Part shown: piece after piece, positions 6,282 to 45,295 of the stretch
Layout: every line of letters starts with the position of its first letter
Position numbering within the stretch: the first letter of the stretch is position 1
Assembly (NCBI GenBank): GCA_001829155.1
Contig: MIAO01000061.1
Coordinates: 31,714-95,713, forward strand
Direction: 5' to 3'
From: Spirochaetes bacterium GWB1_36_13
Lineage (GTDB): Bacteria; Spirochaetota; GWB1-36-13
Length of the DNA: 64,000 nt
Notes under the pieces: model-generated
Database searches by the model: none
What the model was told of the DNA's origin: nothing
What the model saw: only the letters and a program-made list of their open reading frames with translations
Made by a program: the position numbers and the translations under genes

Positions 6282-9200
6282 ATGCGTAAAATTTCCCAGA
6301 GCCTTATGGCAGCCCTTGTGTTTCTAGTTTGTCCCGTTTTTTTAAATGCCTCTGATTATCAGGGGAAAATTATAAAAGAAATCCATTTTTTCGGGCTTCA
6401 TAACGCAGAAGAGGATAAATTAACGCCTGCTCTTTATTTATCTCAAGGCATGGAATTTGTTGATGAAAAAGCTTCTAAAGATTTAAAGAATCTTTATGAA
6501 TTCGGATATTTTGAAAATATCAGACTGGAAATAATAGAGGAAAACGGACAGTTGACCTTAAATTATATTGTGGAAGAAAGACCCCAGATTTTTAAAATAG
6601 AGATCCGGAAAAAGAAAACTTTTGATGATGAAGACTATGAAATTATGGGGCAGTTTGAGTATAAAGCCTGGGATGAAATCAGTATTTTTGATTTTGAATA
6701 CCATGTCTTGAAAGCTGTCCAGAAAAGAAAGATGGATGAAGCAAAAAATCAGGAAGATTATGAATATATCAAGAAAGCTTATCAGAAAAATGAAGAAGAT
6801 ATGATTTATGAATTGACTTCCGATGCGGATGAAGATAAGGTCATTGAAATCTTTCAATCGATCCATTTTCAATATGAAGATCCTGAAGATGCAAGCCTTG
6901 AAATTAAACGGAAAGATATCTTAAAGTTTATGAAAAATAAGGAATGGGAGTTTTATAACCCCTATTATGTGAAAAAAGACGAAAAGAAAATTCTTGAGGA
7001 ATATGTTAAGGAAGGCTTTGCAGAGACTGAAGCCAGAACAGATGATTCGCTTCTGAAAGACAGCGGTGTCTTGGTGATTGAAATTAAGGAAGGAAAAAAA
7101 ATCAATATTCAGAAACTGGATATTCTTGGAACTGGAAATATTGATCCGGATGACTTAAAAGATACAATGGAGAAAATCAGCGAGCCGAGATATTTAGGAA
7201 TTAAAGACTACCAGCTGCCCCTTTTTGCAAATGATTTTAAAGAAGACAAAGATAAAATGATCAAATTTGCAAAGAGTCAGGGATATATGAAGTTTAAAAT
7301 TGATCAAATTTCAGTTTTAGTCAAATATTCTTTTCTTGAACTGATGGAACGCATCGGCGCTGTTTTAGAAAATGCGGATTTTGAAGGCGATAAAATAGAA
7401 ATCATTTTAGATGGATTGAAAAAAGTTTTTGAAACAGACGGGTTTAATCCTGATAAGGCTAAAATTGATTCAATATTAAAAAGCATTGCCGGGACAGATG
7501 AACAAAAAAAGGCTGTTGAAACAATTAAAACTTATATTTTTAACCGGTTAGAGCTTTTAAATAATGAAAAAACAATTCTGGAAAAAACATTGGCTGAAAA
7601 GCTGAAAATGCCGGATATTAAAATTGAGATCAAATCTGAGACTACGGTTCATCCTGAAGAAGAATCAGGATACTATCTTTCTTTCAAAATTGAAGAAGGT
7701 CCTCAATATACTTTCGGAAAGATTGAGCTTGCCGGGAATGAAAAAATAACCACCAAATCCCTTTTTGAAGGGTTTGATATGGAAGAGGGATCGGTTTATA
7801 ACGATACCAAGTTTGAAGAGTTTATGAGAAATTCTTATATGAGTTACCAAAGTAACGGTTTTTTTTATTCTAAAATCACGCCTATACCTAAAGTTGATGA
7901 AGAAAAAAAAGTTATTTCCTATGTGATTGATATTTATGAAGGGGAAAAAGTACATATTGAAAATATGTACATTATCGGGAACTCTAAGACAGAAACACCG
8001 GTGATTGACCGGGAGTTTAGAATTCGGGAAGGAGAAATTTACGACTTTTCAAAAATCTTAAGGACCCATGAACGCTTGATGAAAAGCCAGTTTTTTGCGA
8101 ATGCTGAATTTGAACCGAAAACCGGAAGTGAAGAAGGATTGATTGACCTTTTCTGGAAAGTGGAAGAGGGGAAAACAGGAATGCTGACGATGGGGGGAGG
8201 ATATGGAACCCTTTCAGGATTTACGCTGTTCGGTCAGATTTCAGAGCTTAACTTTTTAGGAAAAGGGTATAATCTTTCTTTTAGAGGCGATTACGGTCAA
8301 AAAAGCCAGAGCCTTTCCACCTCATTCGGCTCCAGATGGATCGGATATATTCCGGTCAGCTACAGTTTTTCCATCTCTTATAAATGGGCTCAGAATGATG
8401 TGATTCCTTCTTATGACCGGGATCACAATGGGCTGATCGATAAATATTATAACAACGGAAGCGGAATGAGTCTTTATAATGAAGGCGCATCTGATTTTGA
8501 TAATTATTCGGATGAAGATAGAAACGGAGATGGGATGGCTTCCAGTACAGCCGATGCTTTAGATGATGAAAGGTATTTTAAAAGCCAGAGTCTGGTTTTT
8601 GGATTAGGGTTTGGTTATTCGATCTCAGAATACTGGGGTGCGGGAGCCAGACAGTCTCTCAGTTTTTCAAAATACTATGACGCAAAAAATATTACAGTGG
8701 ATAATCTTTATGAAGATGATGAATACAGGCTTCGTACTCTTTTGAAGACTGGAAAATATGAGCCGGTTACCCAAACCGGATTTTCAGTCAGCTATGATTC
8801 AACCGATAATTATCTTACTCCAACCAAAGGAATCGTTTTTTCTCCTGATGTTACTTTTTACGGGCTTCAGGGCGGCTATAACCAGTTTATCAATTATTCA
8901 GTTGATCTTTCAGGCTATCTGACATTGAAAGAAATTAAAAAATACAAATGGAATCTGGTATGGGCAAACCACATCGGTATTTCAACTATTACCGCTTTAC
9001 CTTTTAAAAATTCTCCTAAACTCTATTCAGAAAACAGGCTGGATTTTGACGGAATTCGGGAATTAAGGGGTTGGGAAAATCAGCTTTATGACGATAAAGT
9101 AAAAGGACTGGGAAAAGTGAGTCTAGGAAGCGAACTTCGAATCCCGATACCGGGAACTCAAAACCTTTTATGGTGGGCTTTCTTTTTTGACGGTGGAAAT

Positions 9201-9416
9201 GTCAGTGATAAAGGCGGATTTGATGACCTTCCTTTAAAACTGAAAGATTTTTATTACAGTACCGGATGGGGGCTGAAAATTGAAATCCCAATGTTTCCGA
9301 TCCGCCTTTATTTTGCCAAAAGGCTGAAATGGGAAGACGGATTTTTTAAAGACCAACAGCCGGGATTAGGTCTTGGAAACTGGACATTTGTCCTCTCGAT
9401 TGCCGGATTTTTTTAG
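6282..9416 (+). CDS. bamA: Outer membrane protein assembly factor BamA (Omp85), long form with acidic insertion
   Basis: Signal peptide, a long POTRA-like N-region, and a C-terminal beta-barrel with alternating aromatic pattern. It ends in a GNWTFVLSIAGFF-type terminal motif. skp genes follow. Confidence 0.85.
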   Translation: MRKISQSLMAALVFLVCPVFLNASDYQGKIIKEIHFFGLHNAEEDKLTPALYLSQGMEFVDEKASKDLKNLYEFGYFENIRLEIIEENGQLTLNYIVEERPQIFKIEIRKKKTFDDEDYEIMGQFEYKAWDEISIFDFEYHVLKAVQKRKMDEAKNQEDYEYIKKAYQKNEEDMIYELTSDADEDKVIEIFQSIHFQYEDPEDASLEIKRKDILKFMKNKEWEFYNPYYVKKDEKKILEEYVKEGFAETEARTDDSLLKDSGVLVIEIKEGKKINIQKLDILGTGNIDPDDLKDTMEKISEPRYLGIKDYQLPLFANDFKEDKDKMIKFAKSQGYMKFKIDQISVLVKYSFLELMERIGAVLENADFEGDKIEIILDGLKKVFETDGFNPDKAKIDSILKSIAGTDEQKKAVETIKTYIFNRLELLNNEKTILEKTLAEKLKMPDIKIEIKSETTVHPEEESGYYLSFKIEEGPQYTFGKIELAGNEKITTKSLFEGFDMEEGSVYNDTKFEEFMRNSYMSYQSNGFFYSKITPIPKVDEEKKVISYVIDIYEGEKVHIENMYIIGNSKTETPVIDREFRIREGEIYDFSKILRTHERLMKSQFFANAEFEPKTGSEEGLIDLFWKVEEGKTGMLTMGGGYGTLSGFTLFGQISELNFLGKGYNLSFRGDYGQKSQSLSTSFGSRWIGYIPVSYSFSISYKWAQNDVIPSYDRDHNGLIDKYYNNGSGMSLYNEGASDFDNYSDEDRNGDGMASSTADALDDERYFKSQSLVFGLGFGYSISEYWGAGARQSLSFSKYYDAKNITVDNLYEDDEYRLRTLLKTGKYEPVTQTGFSVSYDSTDNYLTPTKGIVFSPDVTFYGLQGGYNQFINYSVDLSGYLTLKEIKKYKWNLVWANHIGISTITALPFKNSPKLYSENRLDFDGIRELRGWENQLYDDKVKGLGKVSLGSELRIPIPGTQNLLWWAFFFDGGNVSDKGGFDDLPLKLKDFYYSTGWGLKIEIPMFPIRLYFAKRLKWEDGFFKDQQPGLGLGNWTFVLSIAGFF

Positions 9417-12143: not shown

Positions 12144-13925
12144 ATGAATAAACTGAAAAAAGGAATCAAACAATTTTGTCAGTCTATAACAATCAAAAAA
12201 TATAGTTTTTTTATTGTCGGTGGAACTATTCTATCAAATTTTGTTTCGCTTTTATTTGAAAAAAATTTATTGCAAATCACAAGTGATAATTTAATTGAGC
12301 AGATGCATCTCCTTCCAATCAGTCTTAAAGTGATTAATTTTATTATTAATATTATATTTCCTTTTTCAATTCCAGTTTTTTTGATTTTGAAACATTTTAA
12401 ACCTATTTCTCTTTTTTTAAGAAAAAATCATAAGCCTATGGATTCCTATACTGCCAAAAGAATATTGAACCTTCCTTTAACCATTGGTTTTTTATCAAGT
12501 TTGGGTTGGATTATTTCTTTTGTAGGCATGAGTCTCATGCTTTATATTCTACAATCAGAAAATTATATCAATTTTGAGATTTCTCAATTTCTCATTGGAG
12601 CTCTGATTCATGATCTTATTCTTGGAAGTTTATCATTTGTTGTTTCTTTTTATTTTTTTGAATATATAAACCGAAAGATTTTTATTCCATTTTTTTTCCC
12701 AATGGGAGATATTTCCCATTACACAGGTGTTGTTAATTTATCAACTCGCACTCGGTTTGTTTTTTATTTTTTAGCTATAGTTATTTTTCCTTTTGTGATG
12801 ATATCAATTCATCTTTACGATTTTTTCTGTAATGAAAGTTCTTTTCATCTTTCTCAATTTGGAAAAACATTTTTTATCATTGCTTTATTTTTTATCATTT
12901 CAGGGTTAGTATTAACTTTTCTAATGATTAAATACTATCAAAATCCCTTAAAGGCAATGAAAAACATGACAGAAAAGATCAGGCAGGGGGATTATGAAAC
13001 AAAGATGCAGGTTGTGTCTTCAGATGAACTGGGATATCTGGGAGAAAGTTTGAATCAGATGAGCAGTCAGCTCAAAAATCAGATTACAGAAATAACCAAT
13101 ATGAATAAAAATCTCGAGTGCAAGGTCAGGGAAAGAACTCAGGAACTTGAAGAAGAAAAAAACAAGCTGAAAATCAGGAATGTTGAAATTGAAAAAGAAA
13201 TTGAAATGGCGCGTCAAATTCAAAAGTCATTAATTCCTTCGGTTGAGCCTGCTCCTCATATTGCTTCATTTTATAAGCCGATGAGTCAGGTAGGCGGAGA
13301 TTTTTACGAGTTTATTCCATTTCCGGAGGAAAATAAAATCGGATTTTTTTTAAGCGATGTTTCCGGACATGGAATTCCTGCCGCTTTTATCACATCCATG
13401 ATCAAAAGTTTTATTTTGCAGGCAGGAAATGTCAAAAAAAACCCGGCGGATTTTTTATCTTATCTCAATGAAGGGCTTTACAAGCAGACTGCGGATAATT
13501 TTATCACAGCTTTCTATGGAATTTATTCCTATGAGGATTATTCCATGATTTACGCGAATGCAGGGCACAATCCGCCTTATGTCATTCAAAAAGACAGTGT
13601 TGATTTTCTTCCGATGTTAAAAAAAGGTTTTCCGCTTGCTGTTTTTGACAATCAATTTCTTGAAATGAAAAAAACGCTTTATCAAAATAATAAATTTTTT
13701 TTTCAATCAGGCAATCGGGTCCTTCTTTATACAGACGGGCTTACCGAAACTGTCAATGACTTAAATAAAGAATACTATTTTGAAAATGAGATAGAAGAAA
13801 TATTAAAAGGCTGTTATTCCCTTTCCCCGAAATTATTCATAGAAAATCTTTATCAGAATTTAGCCCGTTTTAGGGGCAATGAGAGTTTTGAGGATGATAT
13901 TTGTATGATTTGTTTTGATGTATAA
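12144..13925 (+). CDS. Membrane sensor with HAMP-like region and PP2C-type (SpoIIE/RsbU-family) serine phosphatase domain
   Basis: N-terminal multi-TM region, then a coiled-coil/HAMP-like segment (SDELGYLGESLNQMSSQLK). C-terminal SpoIIE motifs are GGDFYEF...FFLSDVSGHGIPAA...YTDGLTE. Confidence 0.75.
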   Translation: MNKLKKGIKQFCQSITIKKYSFFIVGGTILSNFVSLLFEKNLLQITSDNLIEQMHLLPISLKVINFIINIIFPFSIPVFLILKHFKPISLFLRKNHKPMDSYTAKRILNLPLTIGFLSSLGWIISFVGMSLMLYILQSENYINFEISQFLIGALIHDLILGSLSFVVSFYFFEYINRKIFIPFFFPMGDISHYTGVVNLSTRTRFVFYFLAIVIFPFVMISIHLYDFFCNESSFHLSQFGKTFFIIALFFIISGLVLTFLMIKYYQNPLKAMKNMTEKIRQGDYETKMQVVSSDELGYLGESLNQMSSQLKNQITEITNMNKNLECKVRERTQELEEEKNKLKIRNVEIEKEIEMARQIQKSLIPSVEPAPHIASFYKPMSQVGGDFYEFIPFPEENKIGFFLSDVSGHGIPAAFITSMIKSFILQAGNVKKNPADFLSYLNEGLYKQTADNFITAFYGIYSYEDYSMIYANAGHNPPYVIQKDSVDFLPMLKKGFPLAVFDNQFLEMKKTLYQNNKFFFQSGNRVLLYTDGLTETVNDLNKEYYFENEIEEILKGCYSLSPKLFIENLYQNLARFRGNESFEDDICMICFDV

Positions 13926-19662: not shown

Positions 19663-21069
19663 ATGGTAATGTATAAAGTCCTTTTAGTGGATGAAAATAA
19701 AGAAAATATCCAGTTTTTTAAAGAAATTTTTGAGAAATGGGCGATTGACTGTATGGTAGTCAATGACATCGATAATTCTTTATTAAAGATTAATATTCTA
19801 AAACCGGACTTTATTATGATATCTTCTGATCTTCAGGTTAATTATGAAAATATTATCCAATTTCTGGCAACCAAAAACTTCAAAATCCTTCTTTATGGAA
19901 GAAAACAGGCTAGCTTGAATTGGAAACATATTGTTGGTTTTAAAGGATATCTTCCTTTTCCTTATAATGTTCTTCAGTTTAAAAATATGTTTTATTCCAA
20001 TTTAAAAAATGATTATAAAAAAGATGATAAGGAATCTCATATCGAACTGGTTATCAACGATAAAATAGGTGTTGTTGATCTAGCGGGGAAAATAACATGG
20101 GAACAAGTGCATGAACTGAAATATTCTATTATTCATTCTATTCAAAAAGATGAAATCCTTGGAATTATCTTTATTTTTCAGCAGCTTGAGAACATGGATT
20201 CAGACTTGACTGAATTGATTGAACATTCATTTAGTTTTATAAAGGATTTAAAGTTTGATTCAAAGGCGATTAAATTTTTAAGTATGGATAAAAGAATTAT
20301 TGACCTTATTCATCAAAACCCCGTCTTGCGGAAGATAGAACAGGTAAATTCTTTTGCGGAAGCTTTTTTAAGGCTTCAAAATATCAATTTAAAGGGAAAT
20401 AATCTGGGGCTGGATATTGATTTTTTAAAAGAAAATATTAAATTAGTTGAAAATGTTTATGATGAGTATGGGAATCTGATAAAAAAGGCGGGAGATATTT
20501 TTTCCAAAGAAGATATTTTTAAACTCAGAAGTGAAGGAATTACAAAAATCTATTATGCCAATGAACTTTCATATATGGGAATATCAATCGGCGATGTTTC
20601 TGAAGTCAAAAAAAATATTGAGGAAATTATTATCCGTCAGGCTGAAAATGCAAGTAATTTAGGCATTTCAGAAGAAACCCAAAAGAAGGCAAATCTCGAA
20701 GAGAAACTGGTTATTCTTGTCGAAGATGATAAGGGAAGTCAGATGCTGATAGCAAAAATACTGGACAAGCTCAAATGCAGTTATAAGATTGCTGATAATG
20801 GACGGGATGCTCTTTCTTATGCGATTCATTACAATCCTCATTTAATCATTCTGGATTTAATGATGCCGAAAATGAACGGGGTAGAGTTTGTGAAACAATA
20901 CAAGGAGCTTCGTAAAAATTTACTGGCGCCTATTATTGTAACTTCCGGTGTCAATAAACCTGAAATTATTCAATATTTATTAAAAACTAATGTAGTCAAA
21001 GATTTTATATTAAAACCTATTGTCGATTTAAAAGGTTTTGTTTTTAAAATTTTAAATTACCTTGTCTGA
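19663..21069 (+). CDS. Multi-domain regulator: degenerate N-terminal receiver, central STAS (anti-sigma-antagonist-like) domain, C-terminal CheY-like receiver
   Basis: The C-terminal REC has LVILVEDD...LIILDLMMPKMNG...LKP. The central segment (IGVVDLAGKITWEQVHELKYSI...) is STAS-like. The N-terminal segment (VLLVDENKENIQFFKEIF...FIMISSDL) is receiver-like. Confidence 0.6.
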   Translation: MVMYKVLLVDENKENIQFFKEIFEKWAIDCMVVNDIDNSLLKINILKPDFIMISSDLQVNYENIIQFLATKNFKILLYGRKQASLNWKHIVGFKGYLPFPYNVLQFKNMFYSNLKNDYKKDDKESHIELVINDKIGVVDLAGKITWEQVHELKYSIIHSIQKDEILGIIFIFQQLENMDSDLTELIEHSFSFIKDLKFDSKAIKFLSMDKRIIDLIHQNPVLRKIEQVNSFAEAFLRLQNINLKGNNLGLDIDFLKENIKLVENVYDEYGNLIKKAGDIFSKEDIFKLRSEGITKIYYANELSYMGISIGDVSEVKKNIEEIIIRQAENASNLGISEETQKKANLEEKLVILVEDDKGSQMLIAKILDKLKCSYKIADNGRDALSYAIHYNPHLIILDLMMPKMNGVEFVKQYKELRKNLLAPIIVTSGVNKPEIIQYLLKTNVVKDFILKPIVDLKGFVFKILNYLV

Positions 21070-21173
21070 AAAAATCTCAATTTTTTATAAATAAATTTTT
21101 TTTATTGACTTTTTTTCTTTATTTTTTTTATTTAAAAATTAAATTTAAAAGTTATTGATATTAAGAGGTAAAA

Positions 21174-22004
21174 ATGAGATTAAAACGGGTTGCGCTTTTA
21201 TTTTTTCTATCTTTAGTTATTTGTTCATCTTTTGTTTCGGCTGAGCAATATGATCAGAAAGAGGCTGAAATTGAAATCGATAATGCTTCAAAAGCAATAG
21301 CGGAAGCATTAAGCGATCCTAAAACAAGGGATTTTCTTCCGTTTCTATTTGGAGAATCGAAAAAATATTATGAAGAAGCCAGATATTATCTGGAAGAAGA
21401 AGAATTTGACTGGTCGGTTTATTTTTCAAAAATGTCGCAGATCATGGCTCAGGCATCTTTATACCGCGCAAAAGCGGAGCTTTTAAAATGGCAGCTAAGG
21501 GATGAAGAAATAAAGAAATGGAAAAAAACAGCGACAGCAGGTGAAAAAGGAAATCTTTATCAGGAAAAAATCAAAGCTTTGGAGCAAGAATTTCTAGAAG
21601 CAAAATTAAATCTTTTAATGGCTGAAAATAAAATGGAAAAAATGGGTAGGGTTTATATCTTGACAATCAATGATAAAGACCTTTTCATATCCGGAACCTA
21701 CGCAATCAGTGATAACGGGCAGGCTGTTTTAGATAAAGTTCTTCAGGTGCTTTCTCTTGTGCCTCAATCGAAAATTACAGTAGAGGGGCATACTGCCAAA
21801 GCAGATAAAGACAATAACGCCACCATTAAGGCCAATTCAGTCAAAGATTATTTAGTCAGGAGAAGTAAAAATCCTCTGGAAAATATCTGGATAACAGCTT
21901 ATGGAAATCAAAAACCTTTGGTTATTAATAATAAAGTTCTTCGGGGACCTGAAAATGACAGAATTGTGATCGTTTTCGAGCTGCCTGAAAAAATACATGA
22001 ATAA
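21174..22004 (+). CDS. Secreted protein with helical DUF4398-like N-domain and one degenerate OmpA-C-like domain
   Basis: Signal peptide. C-terminal ...VEGHTAKADKDNNATIKANSVKDYL...YGNQKPL...NDRIVIVFELP follows the OmpA_C scaffold. The TD Asp and RA Arg positions are substituted. Confidence 0.6.
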   Translation: MRLKRVALLFFLSLVICSSFVSAEQYDQKEAEIEIDNASKAIAEALSDPKTRDFLPFLFGESKKYYEEARYYLEEEEFDWSVYFSKMSQIMAQASLYRAKAELLKWQLRDEEIKKWKKTATAGEKGNLYQEKIKALEQEFLEAKLNLLMAENKMEKMGRVYILTINDKDLFISGTYAISDNGQAVLDKVLQVLSLVPQSKITVEGHTAKADKDNNATIKANSVKDYLVRRSKNPLENIWITAYGNQKPLVINNKVLRGPENDRIVIVFELPEKIHE

Positions 22005-22014
22005 GGAGAAAAAT

Positions 22015-22356
22015 ATGAAAATCAAACCAATCTTTGCTTTATCTTTTTTAATTATCTTTATGAGCGGGAATCTTTTTGCAGCTGTAAAAAAAAATAAACA
22101 GGACGCTGAATCAAAGGTGAAAGTAGCTGAAATCCAATACGATCAAATAAAAAAAGAAGCTCACGATATGGCGCCTAAAGAACTTTTATCTGCTGAGCAA
22201 GCACTTAAAAATGCGAAAAAAGAACTGAAAGAAGAAGAATGGCTTTATGCCTATCAGGAAGCGGATAAGGTAATGGCTTATCTTACTTTGATCCGGGCAA
22301 TTATTGAATATAAAAATGCTTTGAAAGAATATGAAAACTTTAAAAACAGCCAGTGA
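22015..22356 (+). CDS. Small secreted helical protein paralogous to the N-domains of the flanking OmpA-like proteins
   Basis: Internal ATG at 22015 with an AAGGAG RBS (track ORF starts at 21997). Signal peptide. AYLTLIRAIIEYKNALKEYE resembles ASLYRAKAELLKWQLRDEE in the neighbouring genes. Confidence 0.45.
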   Translation: MKIKPIFALSFLIIFMSGNLFAAVKKNKQDAESKVKVAEIQYDQIKKEAHDMAPKELLSAEQALKNAKKELKEEEWLYAYQEADKVMAYLTLIRAIIEYKNALKEYENFKNSQ

Positions 22357-24241
22357 CGGGGTAGCGGGTATGCAGAATAAGAAAATTAAGATCATTTTTA
22401 TCGTTTTTTTACTGTTTGCAAATATCACAATCTTTGCTGATAGAAAAAGTTCTGATGAAGTTGAAAGTGAAATTGCTCACGCTGAAAAAATGATCAAAAA
22501 AACTGAAGCATTAAAACCAGTCAAGGAATTTCCCTATGAACTGGTATTGGCAAAATATTATTTAGAAAAAGCAAAAGAGAACCTTGATGACGGAGATGAA
22601 GATATTGCAAGTTATTTTGCCGTTCTTTCAGCAATACAGGGTGAAACGGCTTATTATAAACTTCAGGCCTTTGACCTGAAATGGAAAAGAAAAGAAGAAG
22701 AATTAAAACTCTGGAAGAGTCTGGCTGCTGAAAATTCCGGAGAGATGGCAAAAGTTTACCATAAAATGGAAAAAGAAATCAGGCAGACAAAACTCGATTT
22801 CGCTGTCATAAATGCGGGTTTTGAAAATGCGGACAATGTTTTTTCCATGATGTTAAAAGATTCTGAAAATCTTATTAAAATTACTTTTTCAATTAAAGAT
22901 TCAGGAAAAATTGCTCTTTCAGAATGGTTTCAGATTTTAGCCTTAATTCCTGGGATCCAATTAAAAATTGAAAGCCATACTTCAGGGAAAGATAAAGATA
23001 ACCTTTTATCTACTGCCAAAGGAGAAGCTTTGAAAACTTATCTGATTCAGTCTGGACTTTTTAAGCCGGATCAGATTGTTCTTAATGCTTATGGTAATGA
23101 AAAGCCACTTATGAATCAAGACAAGCCTGTTAAGGGAAAAGCGAATGACCGAATTGAAATATTTTTTGAAAAAGAAAAATCTTATCATTTTATTTTTCAA
23201 GATGCGCAAATTATTAAAAAACAAAAAAAAGATTTTATTTTTAATGGTTCAGGAATGATTTTATTGAACGAATTTTTGGCAATATTTCTACTTCTTCCCG
23301 ATCCTTCCCTTTTAATTGAAGGACATACTTCAAACAAGGATCTTGAGAATTCTTCTTTGGCAAAAGCAGTTTTAATGAAAGATTATTTTATTCAGAAAAC
23401 TGGATTTGCACCTGATAAAATCAAGACAACAGGTTTTGGAGATACGAAGCCTTTGATGAACGGAAGCAAACCTGTAAAGGGGAAAAATAATGACCGAATG
23501 GTTTTATCGATTTTAGTAAAAGATAAAATTGTTTCTCTTTTGCTAAATGATTCGGAAATGATTCAAAAAGGCGGTTTTTCGGCAAGAATCAGTGAGGAAG
23601 GGAAAAAAAACCTCAATGAGCTTGTTCAAATGATTAAAAATAACGCCGTAGAGAAAGCAAGAATTAATATCGAGGGTTTTACCGACAAGTACGATAAAAA
23701 CAATTCTGAGTCCGAATTGAAGGCAAATTTGATACGCGATTATCTGGTGGAAAATGGGAAAATTCCTGTTGAAAAAACAACACTTTATCCACTCGGAAAT
23801 AAAAAACCTTTAAAAGTTGATGGAAAAGTCTTAAAAGGAGTTGATAATAACCGTGTTGAAGTTTCTTTTGCCGTAGGGAAAAAATACCTTCTCGGGATTC
23901 ATGATAATGATCTTTTTATCAAAAAATCTTTTCTGATCAGTGAAAGCGGCAAATCTTATCTTGATAAAGTACATTATCTTCTTTCTTTGATTCCAAATGC
24001 TAAAATATTGATTGAAGGTCATACTTCAGGAAATGATAAAAATAACTCTGTTTCAGAGTCAAAAGCAAGTGCGATCAGAGATTATTTTGTGAATGTCAAA
24101 AAAGTATCGGATGGGAGCATTTCTATCAAAGCTTATGGAAATTTGAAACCTATAGAAATGAACGGGGTTGAAAAAAAAGGCGCCCTCAATGACAGGGTTG
24201 TGATTATTATTGAACTTCCCAAATCGGAAGCGGAAAAATAA
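22331..24241 (+). CDS. Secreted protein with DUF4398-like N-domain and four tandem degenerate OmpA-C-like domains
   Basis: Four repeats of EGHTS(G/N)KDK(D/N)N...DYL/F...YGN.KPL...ND/NR(I/V)E/V. The likely true start is the internal M at 22370 (MQNKKIKIIFIVFLLFANITIFA signal peptide). Confidence 0.6.
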   Translation: MKTLKTASDGVAGMQNKKIKIIFIVFLLFANITIFADRKSSDEVESEIAHAEKMIKKTEALKPVKEFPYELVLAKYYLEKAKENLDDGDEDIASYFAVLSAIQGETAYYKLQAFDLKWKRKEEELKLWKSLAAENSGEMAKVYHKMEKEIRQTKLDFAVINAGFENADNVFSMMLKDSENLIKITFSIKDSGKIALSEWFQILALIPGIQLKIESHTSGKDKDNLLSTAKGEALKTYLIQSGLFKPDQIVLNAYGNEKPLMNQDKPVKGKANDRIEIFFEKEKSYHFIFQDAQIIKKQKKDFIFNGSGMILLNEFLAIFLLLPDPSLLIEGHTSNKDLENSSLAKAVLMKDYFIQKTGFAPDKIKTTGFGDTKPLMNGSKPVKGKNNDRMVLSILVKDKIVSLLLNDSEMIQKGGFSARISEEGKKNLNELVQMIKNNAVEKARINIEGFTDKYDKNNSESELKANLIRDYLVENGKIPVEKTTLYPLGNKKPLKVDGKVLKGVDNNRVEVSFAVGKKYLLGIHDNDLFIKKSFLISESGKSYLDKVHYLLSLIPNAKILIEGHTSGNDKNNSVSESKASAIRDYFVNVKKVSDGSISIKAYGNLKPIEMNGVEKKGALNDRVVIIIELPKSEAEK

Positions 24242-24258
24242 ATTTTAAATTAATAAGG

Positions 24259-24291
24259 CTGCGGATTTAACTCCGCAGTTTATTTATTTTT
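24259..24291 (+). terminator. Rho-independent terminator after the OmpA-like cluster
   Basis: CTGCGGA-TTTAAC-TCCGCAG hairpin followed by TTTATTTATTTTT. Confidence 0.7.
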
Positions 24292-24372: not shown

Positions 24373-25377
24373 ATGAATGAAATTTTTCAGACAGAAGAAG
24401 AAAGCGAACTCGAAAAAAATCTTTTATTAAGACCTGAGAGTTTTGAAAATTTTATTGGACAAAATCGGAATATTGATAATTTGAAAGTTTTTATTCAGGC
24501 TGCCAAAATGAGAAAACAGGTTTTAGATCATGTTCTTTTAAGCGGATCACCAGGACTTGGAAAAACAACTCTCGCCCGGATTATTGCCAATGAAATGAAA
24601 GGAGAGCTTGTGGCTACCAGCGCTCCAGCACTTGAAAAAACAGGGGATCTTGCGGCTGTTTTGACAGGGCTTGAAAAGGGGAGCATTCTATTTATTGATG
24701 AAATTCACCGTTTAAGACCGGCGCTTGAAGAATTGCTTTACAGCGCTATGGAAGACTTTAAGATTGATATTATGATTGGGCAGGGAGCCGGGGCAAAAAC
24801 AGTTGAACTGAATTTAAACCCTTTTACATTGATAGGGGCAACAACCCGGGCGGGAATGCTTTCCACACCTCTCCAGACCAGATTCGGGATTCAGCTCAGG
24901 CTGGAGTTTTATGAGCCGGAAGATCTTGAAAAAATTCTTGCCAAAAAAGCAGAAGTTTTAAAAATAAAAATTGCTGAAAACAGTAAAAATGAAATCTCAA
25001 AACGCTCCAGAGGAACTCCTCGAATCCTTTTAAAGCTATTAAAACGCGTGTGGGATTTCAGTATGGTTGCCGGTCAGAAAGAAATTGACATTCATATTAC
25101 CCGCAAAGCTTTAGAGAGGATGGGAATAGATGAAAACGGGCTTTCTTTAGAAGATAAAAAGATTCTTGAGATTATTGTTAAAAACTATGATGGAGGGCCT
25201 GTCGGGCTTCAAACCATAGCCATATCTATGGGAGAAAGCGAAGATGGAATTCAGGATGTTTATGAGCCTTTTTTAATTCGGGAAGGATTTATTAAAAAAA
25301 CACCCAAAGGCCGTATGACTACAGCAAAAGCCTATGAATATCTTGGTTATTCGAAAAATCAGGAAAGCTTATTTTAG
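24373..25377 (+). CDS. ruvB: Holliday junction branch migration helicase RuvB
   Basis: Walker A GSPGLGKTTLA, Walker B LFIDEIHRL, sensor regions, and a C-terminal winged-helix pattern. Confidence 0.9.
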   Translation: MNEIFQTEEESELEKNLLLRPESFENFIGQNRNIDNLKVFIQAAKMRKQVLDHVLLSGSPGLGKTTLARIIANEMKGELVATSAPALEKTGDLAAVLTGLEKGSILFIDEIHRLRPALEELLYSAMEDFKIDIMIGQGAGAKTVELNLNPFTLIGATTRAGMLSTPLQTRFGIQLRLEFYEPEDLEKILAKKAEVLKIKIAENSKNEISKRSRGTPRILLKLLKRVWDFSMVAGQKEIDIHITRKALERMGIDENGLSLEDKKILEIIVKNYDGGPVGLQTIAISMGESEDGIQDVYEPFLIREGFIKKTPKGRMTTAKAYEYLGYSKNQESLF

Positions 25378-32950: not shown

Positions 32951-33691
32951 TTGCCTGTAATTTTAGCACTTATTTTGATTTTCAGCGGATGTTCTTCAGA
33001 AAAAAAAGAAGAAAAAAAGATTACTCTCTATCAATCTGATCTTTATTATCATAATCTTGTTGTACCGATTAAAAGAGTCTGGCTTTTAAACGCTTCAAAA
33101 GAGCAGTACCGGAATAAAAAACTTGCCTTTCAGCAGGTGGAACTGCAGTTTGAATATTCAAAAGAAAACTATGAACTTCTAAAAGAAATAGAAGAAAAAG
33201 ATTATCTGATTCAAGAAAAAATGACAAAAATGCTTTCTTGGGTTTTGGATGAAGAAGTGGATACGAAAGAGAAAAAAAGCCGGTTTGAAAATCAGATACG
33301 AGATGAAATAAACAGCGGGCTTGAAAAAGGAAAAATCCTTAAAGTGACTATTTTATCTAAAAAACCTGTTTTAAATATTTATTCTTTCGGAACCTTGCTT
33401 TTTAAGCTGAAAGTCAGAAATTCTTCTTCTATTGTCATAGTCCGATTAGAAATCGGAATCGGCTATGGTAAAAACCGCGATGAAATGATTGAGGAAATTG
33501 TTTCCCGTGATCTTCAGATTAAAGATTTAATTTTTACTCTGATGAGTTCTAAGTATTATGACGATATTGATTCAGTGGATAAGCTGAACGCATTGAAAAT
33601 TGATATTTTAAATATTTTTAATTCAGTTCTCAGTTCAGGTGTTATTGAAGAAGTCTATTTTCTGGATTTTAATCAAAATAAAATGAATTGA
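32951..33691 (+). CDS. FliL-like protein with lipoprotein-type signal (paralog of fliL)
   Basis: Lipobox IFSGCSS. The C-terminal half (LEIGIGYGKNRDEMIEEIVSRDLQIKDLIFTLMSSKYYDDIDS...ILNIFNSVLSSGVIEEVYFLDF) parallels the FliL family pattern. Confidence 0.5.
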   Translation: MPVILALILIFSGCSSEKKEEKKITLYQSDLYYHNLVVPIKRVWLLNASKEQYRNKKLAFQQVELQFEYSKENYELLKEIEEKDYLIQEKMTKMLSWVLDEEVDTKEKKSRFENQIRDEINSGLEKGKILKVTILSKKPVLNIYSFGTLLFKLKVRNSSSIVIVRLEIGIGYGKNRDEMIEEIVSRDLQIKDLIFTLMSSKYYDDIDSVDKLNALKIDILNIFNSVLSSGVIEEVYFLDFNQNKMN

Positions 33692-33815
33692 TTTTATACT
33701 TTCACCTTCTATTTGAAAATCACACTAAGTTATTATTATATTTAAGAGCAAAATCTCATTTTATAAATTCAGAATCAGCCGATATATGAATTTAACGATA
33801 TACCGGGAGGGGCGA

Positions 33816-34373
33816 ATGGCAGAAGAATTAAATGACGAAGAATCAAAAGAAGAAGGCGGGATATCCGAACAGCCGTCCGGAGGCTTTTTATCAAAAGGAA
33901 TTGTAAAAATATTAATGATAGTAGCTTCCTTTCTGGTAGGTGTTATCCTTATGGTTTTAGTTTCTAATATTGTTTTTAATATCAGGGAAAAAGGTTCTCA
34001 AAAAGAGGAAGAAGTAATCTGGTCTCCGGGTGTAACCCCAAAAAAGCCTGCTTACCAGACTCTGGGGCTTGATCCTTTTAAAATTAATTTAAACGATCCG
34101 ACAGGGACGATGCCTGGAATACTCCAGCTTGAAATTGCCCTTGCGTATGAAAAAAATAATGTTAAACTTCAGACTGAACTATTAGACAGGAAACTTCAAA
34201 TCCGTGATAAAATCATTACGCTTTTATCATCAAAAACTTATGAAGATCTGAATACTCCTGATAAAATAGCTGACTTAAAAAAACAGATCAAAAATCAAAT
34301 CAATACCCTTTTAATGGAAGGAATTATTGAAGAAATCTATGTATCTAGTTTTGATGTGATTACACGGACTTAA
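33816..34373 (+). CDS. fliL: Flagellar basal-body-associated protein FliL
   Basis: Single TM, then the FliL pattern (FKINLND...LQLEIALAY...IRDKIITLLSSKTYEDL...IIEEIYVSSFDV). The ATG at 33816 has a GGGAGGGG RBS. Immediately upstream of fliM. Confidence 0.75.
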   Translation: MAEELNDEESKEEGGISEQPSGGFLSKGIVKILMIVASFLVGVILMVLVSNIVFNIREKGSQKEEEVIWSPGVTPKKPAYQTLGLDPFKINLNDPTGTMPGILQLEIALAYEKNNVKLQTELLDRKLQIRDKIITLLSSKTYEDLNTPDKIADLKKQIKNQINTLLMEGIIEEIYVSSFDVITRT

Positions 34374-34401
34374 TAAGGAATAATCAAAAAGGGTTTTTAA
34401 T

Positions 34402-35523
34402 ATGAATGATGCTCTTTCTCAAAGTGAAATAGACGCTCTTTTAACAGTGGTTACCAGTAATGAAGGAAGTGGGGGAGCTCTTGGCGGCGGTGGAGGCGGT
34501 GACTCCAGCGGATTTGATTTAGGCAGTCTTGGAGATCTTTCCTCGATACTCAATTCCGGCGGCGGCGGTGATTTCACTCCTCATTATGAAAAAAGCAAAA
34601 AAGTCAAGATGTATGACTTTAAAAGACCGGATAAATTTTCAAAAGATCAAATTCGTACTCTTCAAATGATCCATGAAACTTTTGCCCGTCTGACAACAAC
34701 TTCTTTGTCTGCTCAGCTTCGGCTTCTTGTTCATGTCCATGTGGCTGCGGTAGAACAGCTGACTTACGAAGAGTTTGTCCGTTCCCTACCAAACCCGTCC
34801 ACTCTAGCCATGATTAACATGGAGCCTCTGAAAGGAAGCAGTATTTACGAAATGGACCCTACTGTTACATTTACAATGATAGACCGTCTTTTTGGCGGTA
34901 CAGGTGCGGCTATTAAATTGAACCGTGAATTGACAGATATAGAAAGTACAGTTATTGAAACAATTATTGTCCGTATTTTGAATAATTTAAGAGAAGCATG
35001 GGCAAATGTCATCGATCTTCGTCCAAGGCTTGGAAACATTGAAACCAATCCTCAGTTTGCTCAGATTGTACCTCCTAATGACATGGTCGTTTTGATTACT
35101 TTTGAAACCAAAATAGGCGATGTGGAAGGAATGACCAATTTTTGTATTCCATATATTACCATTGAGCCGATTATTTCAAAACTGAGCGCCCAGTACTGGT
35201 ATTCAAGTGTCAGAAAAGGACTCACTCAGGAAAACTTCAATATTATTAAAGACAATCTGGTAGATGCGAATATCGATGTCAGCGCTGAACTGGGTGAAAC
35301 GGAAATTACCCTGAAAGAAGCGTTGGAATTGAACCCTGGAGATGTGGTAAGGCTTTCAGGGCATAAAATATCAAGCGATATTCTTCTGAAAATCGGAAAA
35401 AAACCTAAATTCAAATGTAAACCCGGGATTTTTGGAAAAAGAATAGCGGTTCAGGTAATCGATAATTATGACAAAGGCGGAATATTAACTCTTGAAGATC
35501 TCATGAAAGGAGGAGAAAAATAA
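34402..35523 (+). CDS. fliM: Flagellar motor switch protein FliM
   Basis: N-terminal CheY-binding LSQSEIDALL motif. Middle domain (GTGAAIKLNRELTDIE), and a C-terminal FliN-like region. Confidence 0.9.
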   Translation: MNDALSQSEIDALLTVVTSNEGSGGALGGGGGGDSSGFDLGSLGDLSSILNSGGGGDFTPHYEKSKKVKMYDFKRPDKFSKDQIRTLQMIHETFARLTTTSLSAQLRLLVHVHVAAVEQLTYEEFVRSLPNPSTLAMINMEPLKGSSIYEMDPTVTFTMIDRLFGGTGAAIKLNRELTDIESTVIETIIVRILNNLREAWANVIDLRPRLGNIETNPQFAQIVPPNDMVVLITFETKIGDVEGMTNFCIPYITIEPIISKLSAQYWYSSVRKGLTQENFNIIKDNLVDANIDVSAELGETEITLKEALELNPGDVVRLSGHKISSDILLKIGKKPKFKCKPGIFGKRIAVQVIDNYDKGGILTLEDLMKGGEK

Positions 35524-36605
35524 TGGGTGGAAACGGATTATCTCAAAATGAAATAGATGCGCTTTTAGGAACAGTCGATGATGATATATTAAGCTCCGGT
35601 TCCGGTAATGAAATGAATCTTTCTTTTGAAAATGTCAATCAAAATATCAATATTGGAAAAGATAAAAAGGATATTGAAGATATTAACCAATTTATTAATA
35701 ATGCCCTGCTTTCAGGAATTGGTGTTATTGGTGATTTGACTGAAACAAACGCAAATGTATTTGGCGCCAAGTCGCTTTTTAAAGATTCTGATCAGGTAGT
35801 GACTTCAGTGAAGGGCAAGGCTGTTACCGTAGGGATGAGAACCAGGGGAATCTTAAACGGGGAACTTCTTTTAATTTTTGAAGAAAAAGGAATTCTTGCT
35901 CTTGCTGATAAAATGCTGGGGCAGGAAGGAAATACTCTGACTGATATTGTTGTCAATACGCTGGGTGAAAGTTTCAGTAAGTTTTTTAAAGAAATATTTA
36001 ACTGGATTAAAAAATCCTATAATCAAACCGTGGATGGCGATATTCCAAAAATAAATATTTATGATAATCCGATTGATATTGAATTTTCATCTAAACAGGC
36101 TGTAGAAGTCTCTTTCTCCATCAGATTGGATAATAAAGACATTAATTGTATTCTTGCGGTTCCAGCGACAATGGCAAAGGAAATTTTAAACCTTGCCTTA
36201 AAGGGCGGAAAAGAAGAATCCAGTTTTCAGAATAAAGAAAAATCATCTTCGCAGGAAAAAAACAAGCAGATTGATGCCCGTCCCGTTCAATTCAGCCGTC
36301 TGGATGAGTCAAACAACAAACTTCCTTTGGGAAATATTGAAATCCTTTTAGATGTATCGATGCAGGTAACGGTTGAACTGGGACGGACAAAAATGAGAAT
36401 CCGTGAAATCTTGGGATTGGGGGAAGGTTCTATCATAGAGCTTCAGAAACTGGCAGGCGAGCCGGTTGATATCCTGGTCAATCAAAAACTGATTGCAAAA
36501 GGCGAGGTTGTTGTCATTGATGAATATTTTGGAGTCCGAATTACTGAAATTATCAATACAACGGAAATGCTGGGTCTTATGAGTCCTCAAGAAGAAGGTA
36601 TGTAA
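35523..36605 (+). CDS. fliY: Flagellar motor switch protein FliY/FliN (CheC-like N-region plus FliN C-domain)
   Basis: N-terminal LSQNEIDALL. C-terminal FliN/SpoA domain (LLDVSMQVTVELGRTKMRIREILGLGEGSIIEL...KGEVVVID). Confidence 0.8.
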   Translation: MGGNGLSQNEIDALLGTVDDDILSSGSGNEMNLSFENVNQNINIGKDKKDIEDINQFINNALLSGIGVIGDLTETNANVFGAKSLFKDSDQVVTSVKGKAVTVGMRTRGILNGELLLIFEEKGILALADKMLGQEGNTLTDIVVNTLGESFSKFFKEIFNWIKKSYNQTVDGDIPKINIYDNPIDIEFSSKQAVEVSFSIRLDNKDINCILAVPATMAKEILNLALKGGKEESSFQNKEKSSSQEKNKQIDARPVQFSRLDESNNKLPLGNIEILLDVSMQVTVELGRTKMRIREILGLGEGSIIELQKLAGEPVDILVNQKLIAKGEVVVIDEYFGVRITEIINTTEMLGLMSPQEEGM

Positions 36606-39929: not shown

Positions 39930-40904
39930 ATGACAGAGGATATTCAGAAGTTAAACGAAAAAGTTTCAGAAAAAAAAGCCGTCATTTCTTCGATTAAAAG
40001 TGAAATAGCACGAATCATTGTAGGACAGGATTATATGGTCGAGAGAATCCTGATTGGTCTTTTCACGGATGGGCATATTCTATTGGAAGGAGTTCCAGGG
40101 CTTGCTAAAACTCTTTCAGTGGAAACGACTGCAAAAGTGATCGGGAGTTCTTTTAAAAGGATTCAGTTTACCCCGGATCTTCTTCCGGCAGACATACTGG
40201 GAACCGAAGTTTATTACCAGAAAACAGGCGAATTTGTCACCAAAAAAGGACCTGTTTTTCATAATGTCATTTTGGCAGATGAAATCAACCGCGCTCCTGC
40301 GAAAGTGCAGTCTGCGCTTTTAGAAGCGATGCAGGAAAAACAAGTTACTTTGGGAAGCCAGACTTATTATCTTGAAAAACCTTTTATTGTTTTAGCTACC
40401 CAAAATCCTCTTGAACAAGAAGGCACCTATCCGCTTCCAGAGGCTCAGCAGGATCGTTTTATGATGAAATTAAAGGTTCAATATCCAAAAAAGGAAGAAG
40501 AAAAGCAAATTTTGAACCGGCTGACCGAAGGGGTTAAAATTGAAAACATTCCGTTGAAAAAAATAATCGGCAATAAAGATATTCTTGAAATCCGTGAAAT
40601 TGTCAGAAGTATTTATATAGATGATAATTTAAAAAATTATATTTTGGATATTGTTTTTAAAACGCGTGAAAAATCAGATTATATCCAATATGGTGTTTCT
40701 CCGAGAGCTTCTTTAAATCTTGTCATGGCATCCAAGGGAAAAGCTTTTATCGAGGGGCGGGGATATGTGGTTCCGGATGATATTAAAGCCGTAGTTTACG
40801 ATATTTTAAGACACAGGCTTTTACTCAGCTATGAAGCTGAAGCTGAAGGCATGAGTGTGGAAGAAGTGATTGCCGGTATTCTTGAGAAAATCAAGCTGAT
40901 TTAA
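39930..40904 (+). CDS. moxR: MoxR-family AAA+ ATPase
   Basis: Walker A GVPGLAKT, Walker B ILADEINRA, sensor motifs. ~324 aa, typical MoxR size. Confidence 0.85.
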   Translation: MTEDIQKLNEKVSEKKAVISSIKSEIARIIVGQDYMVERILIGLFTDGHILLEGVPGLAKTLSVETTAKVIGSSFKRIQFTPDLLPADILGTEVYYQKTGEFVTKKGPVFHNVILADEINRAPAKVQSALLEAMQEKQVTLGSQTYYLEKPFIVLATQNPLEQEGTYPLPEAQQDRFMMKLKVQYPKKEEEKQILNRLTEGVKIENIPLKKIIGNKDILEIREIVRSIYIDDNLKNYILDIVFKTREKSDYIQYGVSPRASLNLVMASKGKAFIEGRGYVVPDDIKAVVYDILRHRLLLSYEAEAEGMSVEEVIAGILEKIKLI

Positions 40905-40936
40905 CTCGAAATTATTAAGAAAAAGGAAAAAATGAC

Positions 40937-43473: not shown

Positions 43474-43482
43474 GGAAAACGG

Positions 43483-45292: not shown

Positions 45293-45295
45293 GAG

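What the first reader, a model, noticed from the sequence alone, without database searches (positions are those of the whole stretch)
21174..24241. Three-gene cluster of secreted DUF4398-like proteins with 1, 0 and 4 tandem degenerate OmpA-C-like domains
The genes are 21174-22004, 22015-22356 and 22331-24241. They overlap, share paralogous helical N-domains, and sit between a promoter-like AT-rich region and a strong terminator.

All five OmpA-like repeats keep the scaffold (GHT..D..N...DYL...YGN.KPL...NDR.E). However, the peptidoglycan-contacting Asp of the canonical TD motif is mostly replaced by S or A, and the Arg of the RA motif by K or N. The domains may therefore bind a ligand other than the m-DAP peptide stem, or serve as non-binding structural repeats.

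A single polypeptide with four tandem OmpA-like domains is uncommon.
Basis: partly seen in the sequence, partly recalled or inferred. Interest (0 to 1): 0.55.

Follow-up and report, generated by a model that had tools for sequence, protein, structure and literature searches.

The report
Spirochete operon of atypical wall-binding proteins
An uncultured groundwater spirochete carries a conserved three-gene operon for exported proteins built from a small helical bundle and one, zero or four copies of an OmpA-type cell-wall-binding domain whose usual ligand-contact residues are replaced in a conserved way, which is a new variant of a known kind and not a new kind of system.

Summary
Three co-directional genes (21174-22004, 22015-22356, 22370-24241) encode signal-peptide proteins with 1, 0 and 4 Pfam-significant OmpA-like domains, and a strong terminator follows. 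With the best-supported start codons the genes do not overlap.

The organism is an uncultured Spirochaetia MAG. The same cluster recurs in five lineages with different neighbours, always with four repeats.

Across 21 repeats:
- The canonical Asp survives once.
- The canonical Arg is always Lys, never Asn.
- The loop between them is 3-4 residues shorter.
- NRR becomes N[D/N/E]R.
- An Asp three residues downstream is invariant.

This is a conserved, remodelled pocket, not decay. About 21 single-domain relatives share the signature. Other tandem OmpA arrays (up to 7 domains) are mostly canonical.

The N-domains of genes 1 and 3 are clear paralogues. Gene 2 and the gene-1 N-domain both model as three-helix bundles that best match the DUF4398 crystal structure, but Pfam DUF4398 scores stay below threshold.

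Spirochete precedents exist: Tp0624, BpiP, and DUF4398/helical + LysM proteins.

The most likely role is a multivalent periplasmic wall-binding scaffold adapted to non-DAP peptidoglycan. This is unproven.

The parts
21070..21173 (+). AT-rich spacer (9.6% GC) upstream of gene 1. It holds the gene-1 RBS AAGAGGT. A promoter here is possible but not demonstrated.
   Evidence: Sequence; GC. The promoter scan found no site here and no excess over shuffles.
21174..22004 (+). Gene 1, 276 aa. It comprises a signal peptide (about residues 1-23, ...FVSA|EQ), a DUF4398-like three-helix bundle plus a long helix (about residues 24-155), and one Lys-type OmpA-like domain.
21648..21989 (+). OmpA-like domain of gene 1 (residues about 159-272), with motif GHTA-KAD-KDNNATI-KA ... 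NDR.
   Evidence: Pfam OmpA residues 171-253; local HMM; key positions A/K/DR with a 10-residue loop.
22015..22356 (+). Gene 2, 113 aa: a signal peptide followed by a stand-alone three-helix bundle (DUF4398-like fold). It has no OmpA-like domain.
22370..24241 (+). Gene 3, 623 aa from the preferred start (the ORF opens at 22331). It comprises a signal peptide (...ITIFA|DRK), a g1-like helical N-domain (about 22439-22837), and four contiguous Lys-type OmpA-like domains.
   Evidence: g1 aligns with g3 residues 1-273, E 2e-39. Domain limits.
22838..23176 (+). Gene 3 OmpA-like repeat 1 (SHTS-GKD...KG...NDR).
23177..23518 (+). Gene 3 OmpA-like repeat 2 (GHTS-NKD...KA...NDR).
23528..23878 (+). Gene 3 OmpA-like repeat 3 (GFTD-KYD...KA...NNR). 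It is the only repeat of 21 that keeps the canonical Asp; its orthologs have Ala or Ser.
23882..24220 (+). Gene 3 OmpA-like repeat 4 (GHTS-GND...KA...NDR). It is the repeat closest to the gene-1 domain (45% identity).
24256..24291 (+). Intrinsic terminator: a 10-bp stem (5 G-C pairs), a 6-nt loop and a T-rich tail. It separates the cluster from ruvB (24373-25377).
   Evidence: fold energy -14.7 kcal/mol.

Best explanation
This is a self-contained operon of an uncultured Spirochaetia bacterium. It encodes three Sec-exported, non-lipidated periplasmic proteins assembled from two modules.

Module 1 is a DUF4398-like three-helix bundle, present in all three proteins. In genes 1 and 3 a long helix follows it.

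Module 2 is a distinct 'Lys-type' subtype of the OmpA-like peptidoglycan-binding domain, present once in gene 1 and four times in gene 3.

**Shown**
- The domain composition.
- Paralogy of g1 with the first 273 residues of g3.
- Conservation of the cluster and of the altered motif.
- Fold assignments for the gene-1 and gene-2 models.

**Inferred**
- The OmpA-like domains still bind a cell-wall ligand non-covalently, through a remodelled pocket. Lys takes the place of the Arg that normally clamps the DAP carboxylate. The canonical Asp is lost, an invariant Asp sits three residues later, and the loop is 3-4 residues shorter.
- This pocket is suited to a non-DAP stem peptide. L-ornithine type is the most likely, as in most spirochetes.
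- The four tandem copies give avidity.
- The helical bundles mediate assembly of the three proteins with each other or with an envelope partner, giving a multivalent periplasmic wall-binding scaffold or tether.
For: **Domains**
- Pfam OmpA is significant, with 1 and 4 stretches.

**Organism**
- The identical proteins are NCBI 'Spirochaetia bacterium' hypotheticals.
- A Borrelia_P83 gene neighbours the cluster in a relative.

**Cluster conservation**
- The cluster is kept as 270-276 / 110-115 / 610-623 aa in five lineages with unrelated flanks.

**Altered pocket is under selection**
- Lys 21/21, Asp at +3 21/21, canonical Asp 1/21, first Arg of NRR 0/21, loop of 10-11 against 14 residues.
- Identity within a repeat position is 35-50%, against 24-38% between positions.
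- The same signature occurs in about 21 single-domain proteins with the g1 architecture.

**Canonical chemistry**
- In canonical domains the Asp, Asn and Arg side chains hold the DAP residue, and the Arg makes a bidentate salt bridge to its carboxylate (PMC7192894).

**Spirochete precedents**
- In Tp0624 the Asp is Ala and no DAP binding is seen. Most spirochetes have L-ornithine in place of DAP (PMC5104382).
- In BpiP the Asp is Glu or Ala, and it binds Borrelia peptidoglycan but not DAP or Lys peptidoglycan (PMC8092773).

**Helical module**
- g1N against g3N gives E 8e-30.
- Leptospira LipL71 is DUF4398 + LysM (PMC5406399).
- A g2-like small gene is adjacent to g1-like genes in the wider family.
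Against: - There are no binding data of any kind.
- The peptidoglycan chemistry of this MAG is unknown. No murE or DAP-pathway gene was seen among the window genes scanned.
- No canonical OmpA-like protein of the same genome was available for comparison.
- Known ornithine-wall binders keep the Arg (BpiP R330, and Tp0624), so Arg to Lys is not explained by the precedent.
- None of the three proteins has an obvious membrane anchor: no conserved lipobox Cys, no barrel, no TM segment beyond the signal peptide. What would be tethered to the wall is therefore unknown.
- One ortholog repeat (P0008 repeat 2: GVSS...VDQ) is clearly more degenerate, as expected if some copies are only structural.
- Hetero-assembly through the helical bundles is pure inference.
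Confidence: 0.5

Rival explanations
1. The OmpA-like copies have lost ligand binding and serve only as structural spacer or oligomerisation modules. The proteins form a periplasmic scaffold that does not touch peptidoglycan.
For: - Two of the three canonical ligand-contact side chains are gone: Asp in 20/21 and Arg in 21/21.
- The loop that forms the outer wall of the pocket is shortened.
- P0008 repeat 2 has drifted further.
- Tp0624 shows no DAP binding (PMC5104382).
Against: - The replacements are invariant, not variable: Lys 21/21, Asp +3 21/21, and Asn-x-Arg kept in 19/21.
- The signature is shared by about 21 distant single-domain relatives.
- Decay would give scatter at these positions.
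- Lys keeps the positive charge of Arg.
Confidence: 0.2
2. These are ordinary DAP-type peptidoglycan anchors. Lys substitutes functionally for Arg and the +3 Asp for the canonical Asp, so nothing about the ligand has changed.
For: - The fold and most scaffold residues are conserved.
- Charge is conserved at both positions if the Asp has simply moved.
- Leptospira, a spirochete, has DAP peptidoglycan (PMC5104382, PMC8092773).
Against: [quoted passage not shown]
- Among 274 domains outside the core cluster family in the best hits, Arg is present in 242. All 21 Lys cases belong to this same protein family.
- Other tandem arrays are mostly canonical Asp/Arg with the 14-residue spacing, so the change is a family trait and not neutral drift.
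Confidence: 0.15
3. They are accessory parts of the periplasmic flagellar apparatus: a stator- or ring-associated wall anchor of the MotB/MotY/FlgT kind.
For: - The best PDB sequence hits of g1 and g3 are MotB-type periplasmic domains (6ysf, E 1e-10).
- NCBIfam gives weak MotY, MotB and MotS hits.
- The fliL-fliL-fliM-fliN genes lie about 9 kb downstream in the window.
Against: - All NCBIfam scores are far below the family cut-offs (for example MotY 76.5 against 400) and cover only the OmpA part.
- There is no N-terminal TM/plug and no motA neighbour.
- The cluster is flanked by unrelated genes in every lineage and is never next to flagellar genes.
- A terminator, ruvB, and several genes on the opposite strand separate it from the fli genes.
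Confidence: 0.05

Closest known systems
Treponema pallidum Tp0624 domain 3 (PDB 5jir), a divergent spirochetal OmpA-like domain
   Different: Tp0624 keeps the Arg and the LSxxRA helix start at nearly normal spacing (TAD(x)6[E/Q]xxLSxxRA). Here the Arg is always Lys, the Asp sits at +3, and the loop is 3-4 residues shorter. Tp0624 has different N-terminal domains (D1-D2), has one OmpA-like domain, and is not in a three-gene cluster.
Borrelia burgdorferi BpiP / BB_0167 (PDB 3oon)
   Different: BpiP keeps Arg330 and the motif MHELSEKRARAIGNYL. It has a single domain, no DUF4398-like module, and stands as a separate transcription unit.
DUF4398 + OmpA architecture, seen here in P0076 (a protein with a GC-A lipobox-like N-terminus); the stand-alone DUF4398 protein PA2901 (PDB 4fm3)
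   Same: The order of modules is the same as in gene 1: an N-terminal three-helix DUF4398-type bundle, a coiled segment, then a C-terminal OmpA-like domain. The g3 profile retrieves P0076 over positions 30-267, and P0076 scores DUF4398 44.2 and OmpA 91.7 bits. 4fm3 is the best helical-fold match of both models. From my own recollection, not tested here: Pseudomonas aeruginosa LptF (PA3692) forms an operon with the small protein PA3691, which would resemble the g2 + g1 pairing.
   Different: P0076 has the canonical GHTD...KRA...NRRVE motif with the 14-residue spacing and an N-terminal Cys. The proteins here have SPase-I-type signal peptides, fall below the Pfam DUF4398 threshold, and carry the Lys-type pocket. 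The NCBIfam LptF and PA1041 models match only the OmpA part and score far below their cut-offs.
Borrelia BB0323 (N-domain PDB 6rjw) and Leptospira LipL71/LruA (DUF4398 + LysM)
   Different: The wall-binding module there is LysM, which binds the glycan, not an OmpA-like domain, which binds the stem peptide. They are single genes without tandem arrays. The similarity is at fold or architecture level only (12% identity).
Other tandem OmpA-like arrays (for example P0019 with 7 domains, P0086 with 5, P0014 and P0032 with 3)
   Same: Several OmpA-like domains lie in one polypeptide.
   Different: Their domains are mostly canonical Asp/Arg/NRR with the 14-residue spacing; some copies depart from it, such as Asp to Ala in P0019 domain 6 and in P0028. 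None has Lys at the Arg position. They lack the g1-like N-domain match and are not shown to sit in this cluster.

Membership tests
OmpA family, C-terminal OmpA-like domain (Pfam PF00691) | Sequence score above Pfam's gathering threshold (27.2 bits) | tested here: met
   g1 scores 42.6 bits with 1 stretch; g3 scores 138.9 bits with 4 stretches. Orthologs P0006, P0009 and P0008 also pass.
OmpA family, C-terminal OmpA-like domain (Pfam PF00691) | The beta/alpha OmpA-like fold | tested here: met
OmpA family, C-terminal OmpA-like domain (Pfam PF00691) | Ligand-contact motif TD(x)7NxxLSxxRA with Asp, Asn and Arg (PMC5104382, PMC7192894) | tested here: not met
   Asp is kept in 1/5 window repeats (1/21 in the family). 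Arg is kept in 0/21 and is always Lys. The Asp-to-Arg spacing is 10-11 residues instead of 14. NRR is N[D/N/E]R.
OmpA family, C-terminal OmpA-like domain (Pfam PF00691) | Non-covalent binding to peptidoglycan | not testable with these tools
   This needs sacculus pull-down or ITC with muropeptides.
DUF4398 (Pfam PF14346) | Sequence score above the gathering threshold (27.9 bits) | tested here: not met
   g3 scores 18.1 bits, g2 13.0 bits, and g1 has no hit. Relatives score 14.7-20.6 bits at the same N-terminal position; only the distant canonical relative P0076 passes, at 44.2 bits. hhalign of the N-domain profile to the P0076 N-domain gives only P 0.03.
DUF4398 (Pfam PF14346) | Three-helix bundle fold as in the DUF4398 crystal structure PA2901 (4fm3) | tested here: met
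Tp0624/BpiP-type divergent spirochetal OmpA-like domains | Canonical Asp replaced while the Arg of LSxxRA is retained at near-normal spacing | tested here: not met
   The Asp is replaced, which is shared. But the Arg is Lys in 21/21 and the loop is shortened. The motifs of the precedents come from PMC5104382 and PMC8092773.
Pal-type peptidoglycan-associated lipoproteins | Lipobox with an invariant Cys at the signal-peptide cleavage site | tested here: not met
   The conserved cleavage region is [FL]FA|D[RK]K with no conserved Cys. The Cys in window g1 (LVIC) is absent at that position in its orthologs. NCBIfam Pal scores 66 against a cut-off of 125.
MotB/PomB stator subunits | N-terminal transmembrane helix with plug, and an adjacent motA | tested here: not met
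   There are only cleavable signal peptides. No motA lies next to the cluster in any lineage. NCBIfam MotB and MotS scores are far below their cut-offs.

The most novel reading that the evidence does not exclude
The Lys-type, short-loop OmpA-like domain (HT[SA]xxD...K[AG]...N[DN]R) is a previously unrecognised specificity class of this widespread wall-binding fold. It would be tuned to a non-DAP (L-ornithine-type or otherwise modified) stem peptide or to another envelope polymer of uncultured Spirochaetota. Genes 1-3 would assemble through their DUF4398-like bundles into one heteromeric, pentavalent periplasmic tether.
Probability: 0.3. Interest if true: 0.6.

Novelty: new variant of a known kind. 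Interest (0 to 1): 0.42.

Why it matters
OmpA-like domains are the main non-covalent link between membranes, motors or secretion machines and the cell wall. Their Asp/Asn/Arg pocket is treated as diagnostic of binding to DAP-type peptidoglycan.

Spirochetes mostly lack DAP, and how their envelope proteins hold the wall is poorly understood. Only two divergent examples (Tp0624, BpiP) have been studied.

A family with a different but strictly conserved pocket (Lys for Arg, a displaced Asp, a shorter loop), arrayed four times in one protein, would give a sequence signature for a second solution to wall binding. It would also give a natural multivalent reagent for non-DAP peptidoglycan.

The practical weight is limited. 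All members come from uncultured organisms and nothing is known about phenotype.

Tried and rejected
1. The reference-genome scan (GTDB species representatives) with the g3 alignment returned only an unrelated OmpA domain in Zobellia.
2. The metagenome scan with g3 patterns found nothing. With g2 patterns it found one short contig, L011.
3. The AFDB fold library was not available, so DUF4398-annotated predicted structures could not be surveyed.
4. A PDB sequence search with the g2 profile found only designed coiled coils. There is no sequence-level link to 4fm3.
5. hhalign of g2 against the g3 N-domain (E 0.18) and of the N-domain profile against the single true DUF4398 domain in hand (P 0.03) was not significant. 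The g2 link rests on fold, on g1N (E 0.0015), and on a bridging homolog L017s (E 3e-6 to g2, 2e-4 to g1N+g3N).
6. I looked for a second, canonical OmpA-like protein or murE/DAP genes in the window to infer wall chemistry and found none.
7. The lipoprotein reading of gene 1 (LVIC) was rejected because the Cys is not conserved.
8. A flagellar role was rejected on context.
9. Tan et al. 2017 (PMC5563150), on the BpiP structure, is not held.
Full report
**1. What is at the coordinates**

Three + strand ORFs occupy 21174-24241.

- **Gene 1** (21174-22004, 276 aa) follows an AAGAGGT ribosome-binding site.
- **Gene 2** is best started at 22015. It has an AGGAG site 6 nt upstream, and the 113-aa protein as NCBI holds it, DHW82_08725, starts at this codon.
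- **Gene 3** opens at 22331, but Met14 (22370) aligns with Met1 of the ortholog and lies directly before the hydrophobic signal sequence.

With these starts the genes are separated by 10 and 13 nt and do not overlap.

The 104-bp spacer upstream has 9.6% GC. The promoter scan called no site in it and found no excess of promoter-like sites over shuffles.

A 10-bp-stem hairpin (-14.7 kcal/mol) with a T-run at 24256-24291 ends the cluster before ruvB.

All three products begin with a basic, then hydrophobic, then small-residue N-terminus. The orthologs share the cleavage-like motif [FL]FA|D[RK]K and have no conserved Cys. I therefore read them as SPase-I exported periplasmic proteins, not lipoproteins. 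This was read by eye, not by a predictor.

**2. The domains**

Pfam OmpA (PF00691) is significant in gene 1 (one stretch) and gene 3 (four stretches). Gene 2 has none. A local HMM places the domains at residues 159-272 of gene 1 and four contiguous units in gene 3, and finds no other OmpA-like ORF in the 64-kb window.

Gene 1 aligns end to end with residues 1-273 of gene 3 (30.6% identity, E 2e-39). Its OmpA-like domain is closest to repeat 4 (45% identity). Gene 3 is therefore a gene-1-like protein with three more domains.

The helical N-domains of genes 1 and 3 are homologous beyond doubt (hhalign 99.8%, E 8e-30).

Gene 2 is only weakly linked by sequence: E 0.0015 to g1N in the expected register, and 0.18 to g3N. 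Other evidence supports the link:

- A small protein from the wider family (L017s) bridges both groups: E 3e-6 to the gene-2 family and 2e-4 to the g1/g3 N-domain profile.

Pfam DUF4398 itself stays below its threshold of 27.9 bits in every cluster member (13-20.6 bits). It passes only in a distant canonical relative, P0076 (44.2 bits), that the gene-3 profile retrieves. 'DUF4398-like' is thus supported at the level of fold and remote similarity, not formal membership.

**3. The ligand-contact residues**

In canonical domains the motif is TD(x)7NxxLSxxRA (PMC5104382). [quoted passage not shown]

HMMER alignments to solved domains (MotB 6ysf, Pal 2hqs, OprF 5u1h, others) and MAFFT alignments with Pal, OmpA, OprF and P0076 agree.

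| Position | Window repeats | Family (21 repeats, five lineages) |
|---|---|---|
| Canonical Asp | A, S, S, D, S | kept in 1/21 |
| Canonical Arg | Lys in all five | Lys 21/21 |
| Asp three residues after the canonical position | present in all five | 21/21 |
| First Arg of NRR | D or N | never Arg (D 14, N 6, E 1) |
| Residues between the two contact positions | 10-11 | 10-11, against 14 in canonical domains |

'R replaced by K or N' should read 'always K'.

The replacement pattern is conserved, not scattered. Each repeat position is more similar to its orthologs (35-50%) than to the other positions (24-38%). So the four-domain array is older than the lineage splits and each copy is maintained. 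One ortholog copy (P0008 repeat 2, GVSS...VDQ) has drifted further.

**4. Distribution**

The identical gene-1 and gene-2 proteins are NCBI hypotheticals of a 'Spirochaetia bacterium' MAG. The window comes from a groundwater metagenome contig.

A word-indexed search of 5.8 billion proteins found one gene-3 relative. An exhaustive HMMER search of 1.84 billion cluster representatives found only three full-length gene-3-like representatives, and 6 proteins in total at E <= 1e-30.

The three-gene cluster recurs in five lineages: the window, L001/L010, L008/L009, L012-14 and L004-7.

- The products measure 270-276, 110-115 and 610-623 aa.
- In the four lineages I aligned, gene 3 has four repeats. 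L012-14 was judged by its length and its 85% identity to the L008 protein.
- The flanking genes are unrelated, which marks a self-contained module.
- L004 has an extra gene-2-like gene upstream.
- No relative was found among GTDB species representatives with the patterns used.

**5. Is a four-domain array unusual?**

Among the best 150 hits, a set biased toward multi-domain proteins by the four-domain query, the domain counts are:

| OmpA-like domains | Proteins |
|---|---|
| 1 | 52 |
| 2 | 73 |
| 3 | 20 |
| 4 | 4 (three are the gene-3 family) |
| 5, 6, 7 | 1 each |

Arrays are uncommon but not unique. Those other arrays are mostly canonical Asp/Arg/NRR with the 14-residue spacing, and none has Lys at the Arg position.

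Conversely, about 21 single-domain proteins of roughly 250 aa share the Lys/short-loop/[D/N]R signature and the gene-1 architecture. Some carry Arg at the canonical Asp position. The named ones are from 'Spirochaetes bacterium' or 'bacterium' MAGs.

In three such loci a gene-2-like small gene lies immediately upstream.

The basic unit therefore appears to be a two-gene module: a small DUF4398-like protein plus a protein with a DUF4398-like domain, a coiled segment and a Lys-type OmpA-like domain. The window's clade has added a third gene with a four-fold array of the Lys-type domain.

**6. Mechanism**

Shown: composition, paralogy, conservation, and fold of genes 1 and 2.

Inferred: the domains keep a functional but remodelled pocket.

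Most spirochetes have L-ornithine in place of DAP (PMC5104382, PMC8092773), and two spirochete OmpA-like proteins with a replaced Asp are documented:

- Tp0624 has TAD, keeps the Arg, and shows no DAP binding (PMC5104382).
- BpiP has Glu or Ala for Asp, keeps the Arg, and binds Borrelia peptidoglycan but not DAP- or Lys-type walls (PMC8092773).

Ornithine lacks the side-chain carboxylate that the Arg clamps. A pocket that gives up the bidentate Arg and repositions the acidic residue is therefore chemically plausible for such a wall. However, both precedents keep the Arg, so this is not a copy of a known solution.

Tandem copies would add avidity.

The DUF4398-like bundle fused to a wall-binding module recurs in spirochete envelope proteins. 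The BB0323 N-domain is the top fold match of gene 2, and LipL71 is DUF4398 + LysM (PMC5406399). The constant pairing with a stand-alone bundle protein suggests hetero-assembly.

None of this is tested. The wall chemistry of the MAG is unknown, no membrane anchor is evident, and model coordinates could not be inspected.

**7. Comparison and verdict**

The proteins are members of the OmpA-like superfamily by score and fold. They fail the family's ligand-contact motif. They work most like the divergent spirochetal wall binders (Tp0624, BpiP) and resemble the DUF4398 + OmpA architecture seen in P0076. They are not members of the Pal, MotB, Tp0624 or LptF families.

The finding is real, conserved, and a new variant of a known kind: a Lys-type OmpA-like subtype, here uniquely arrayed four-fold in a conserved three-gene operon. 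Interest is moderate.

Noticed in passing
L004:9430-14886 and L012:6143-11680: In two of the five lineages the cluster is followed directly by a giant gene (1,818 and 1,845 aa) rich in CarboxypepD_reg-type repeats. The window has ruvB there instead, and no ORF of that kind.
   Followed up: partly
L004:5729-6067: There is an extra gene-2-like small gene (K0, 112 aa) upstream of gene 1 in one lineage. That lineage therefore has four genes (small, g1, small, g3).
   Followed up: partly
L015:4637-5762, L016:346-1471, L017:4433-5538: The wider family forms a two-gene module: a 115-116-aa gene-2-like protein (hhalign E 7e-5 and 3e-6 for the two tested, L015 and L017) lies 11-13 nt upstream of a ~250-aa gene-1-like protein with the Lys-type OmpA-like domain. 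In L017 a 325-aa multi-pass membrane-looking protein follows.
   Followed up: partly
P0012, P0013, P0017, P0022, P0024, P0025, P0097 (hits): Several single-domain relatives carry Arg (or Lys in P0021 and P0056) at the position of the canonical Asp (GHTR.RDR.N...K). This reverses the charge in the pocket.
   Followed up: no
L012:474-2195 (- strand): A Borrelia_P83 (PF05262) family gene lies next to the cluster in one lineage. This is a further spirochete and envelope marker.
   Followed up: no
window 32951-36605: There are two fliL genes followed by fliM and a fliN/fliY-type gene. A radical-SAM gene lies upstream where motA/motB might be expected from my own recollection of spirochete motility operons. 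No MotB is in the window.
   Followed up: partly
window 39930-46942: A Bat/MoxR-type operon is present: MoxR AAA ATPase (39930-40904), VWA protein (42502-43473) and BatD-like protein (45296-46942), with further ORFs between them.
   Followed up: no
window 19663-21069: The gene directly upstream of the cluster encodes a 468-aa protein with a C-terminal receiver domain, a second weaker receiver-like stretch, and a weak STAS-like match. It is not conserved next to the cluster in other lineages. The window also holds HAMP-SpoIIE (12144-13925) and SpoIIE-TPR (49717-51768) proteins.
   Followed up: no
window 6282-9416: A 1,044-aa Omp85/POTRA (BamA-type) protein confirms a diderm envelope for this organism.
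   Followed up: no
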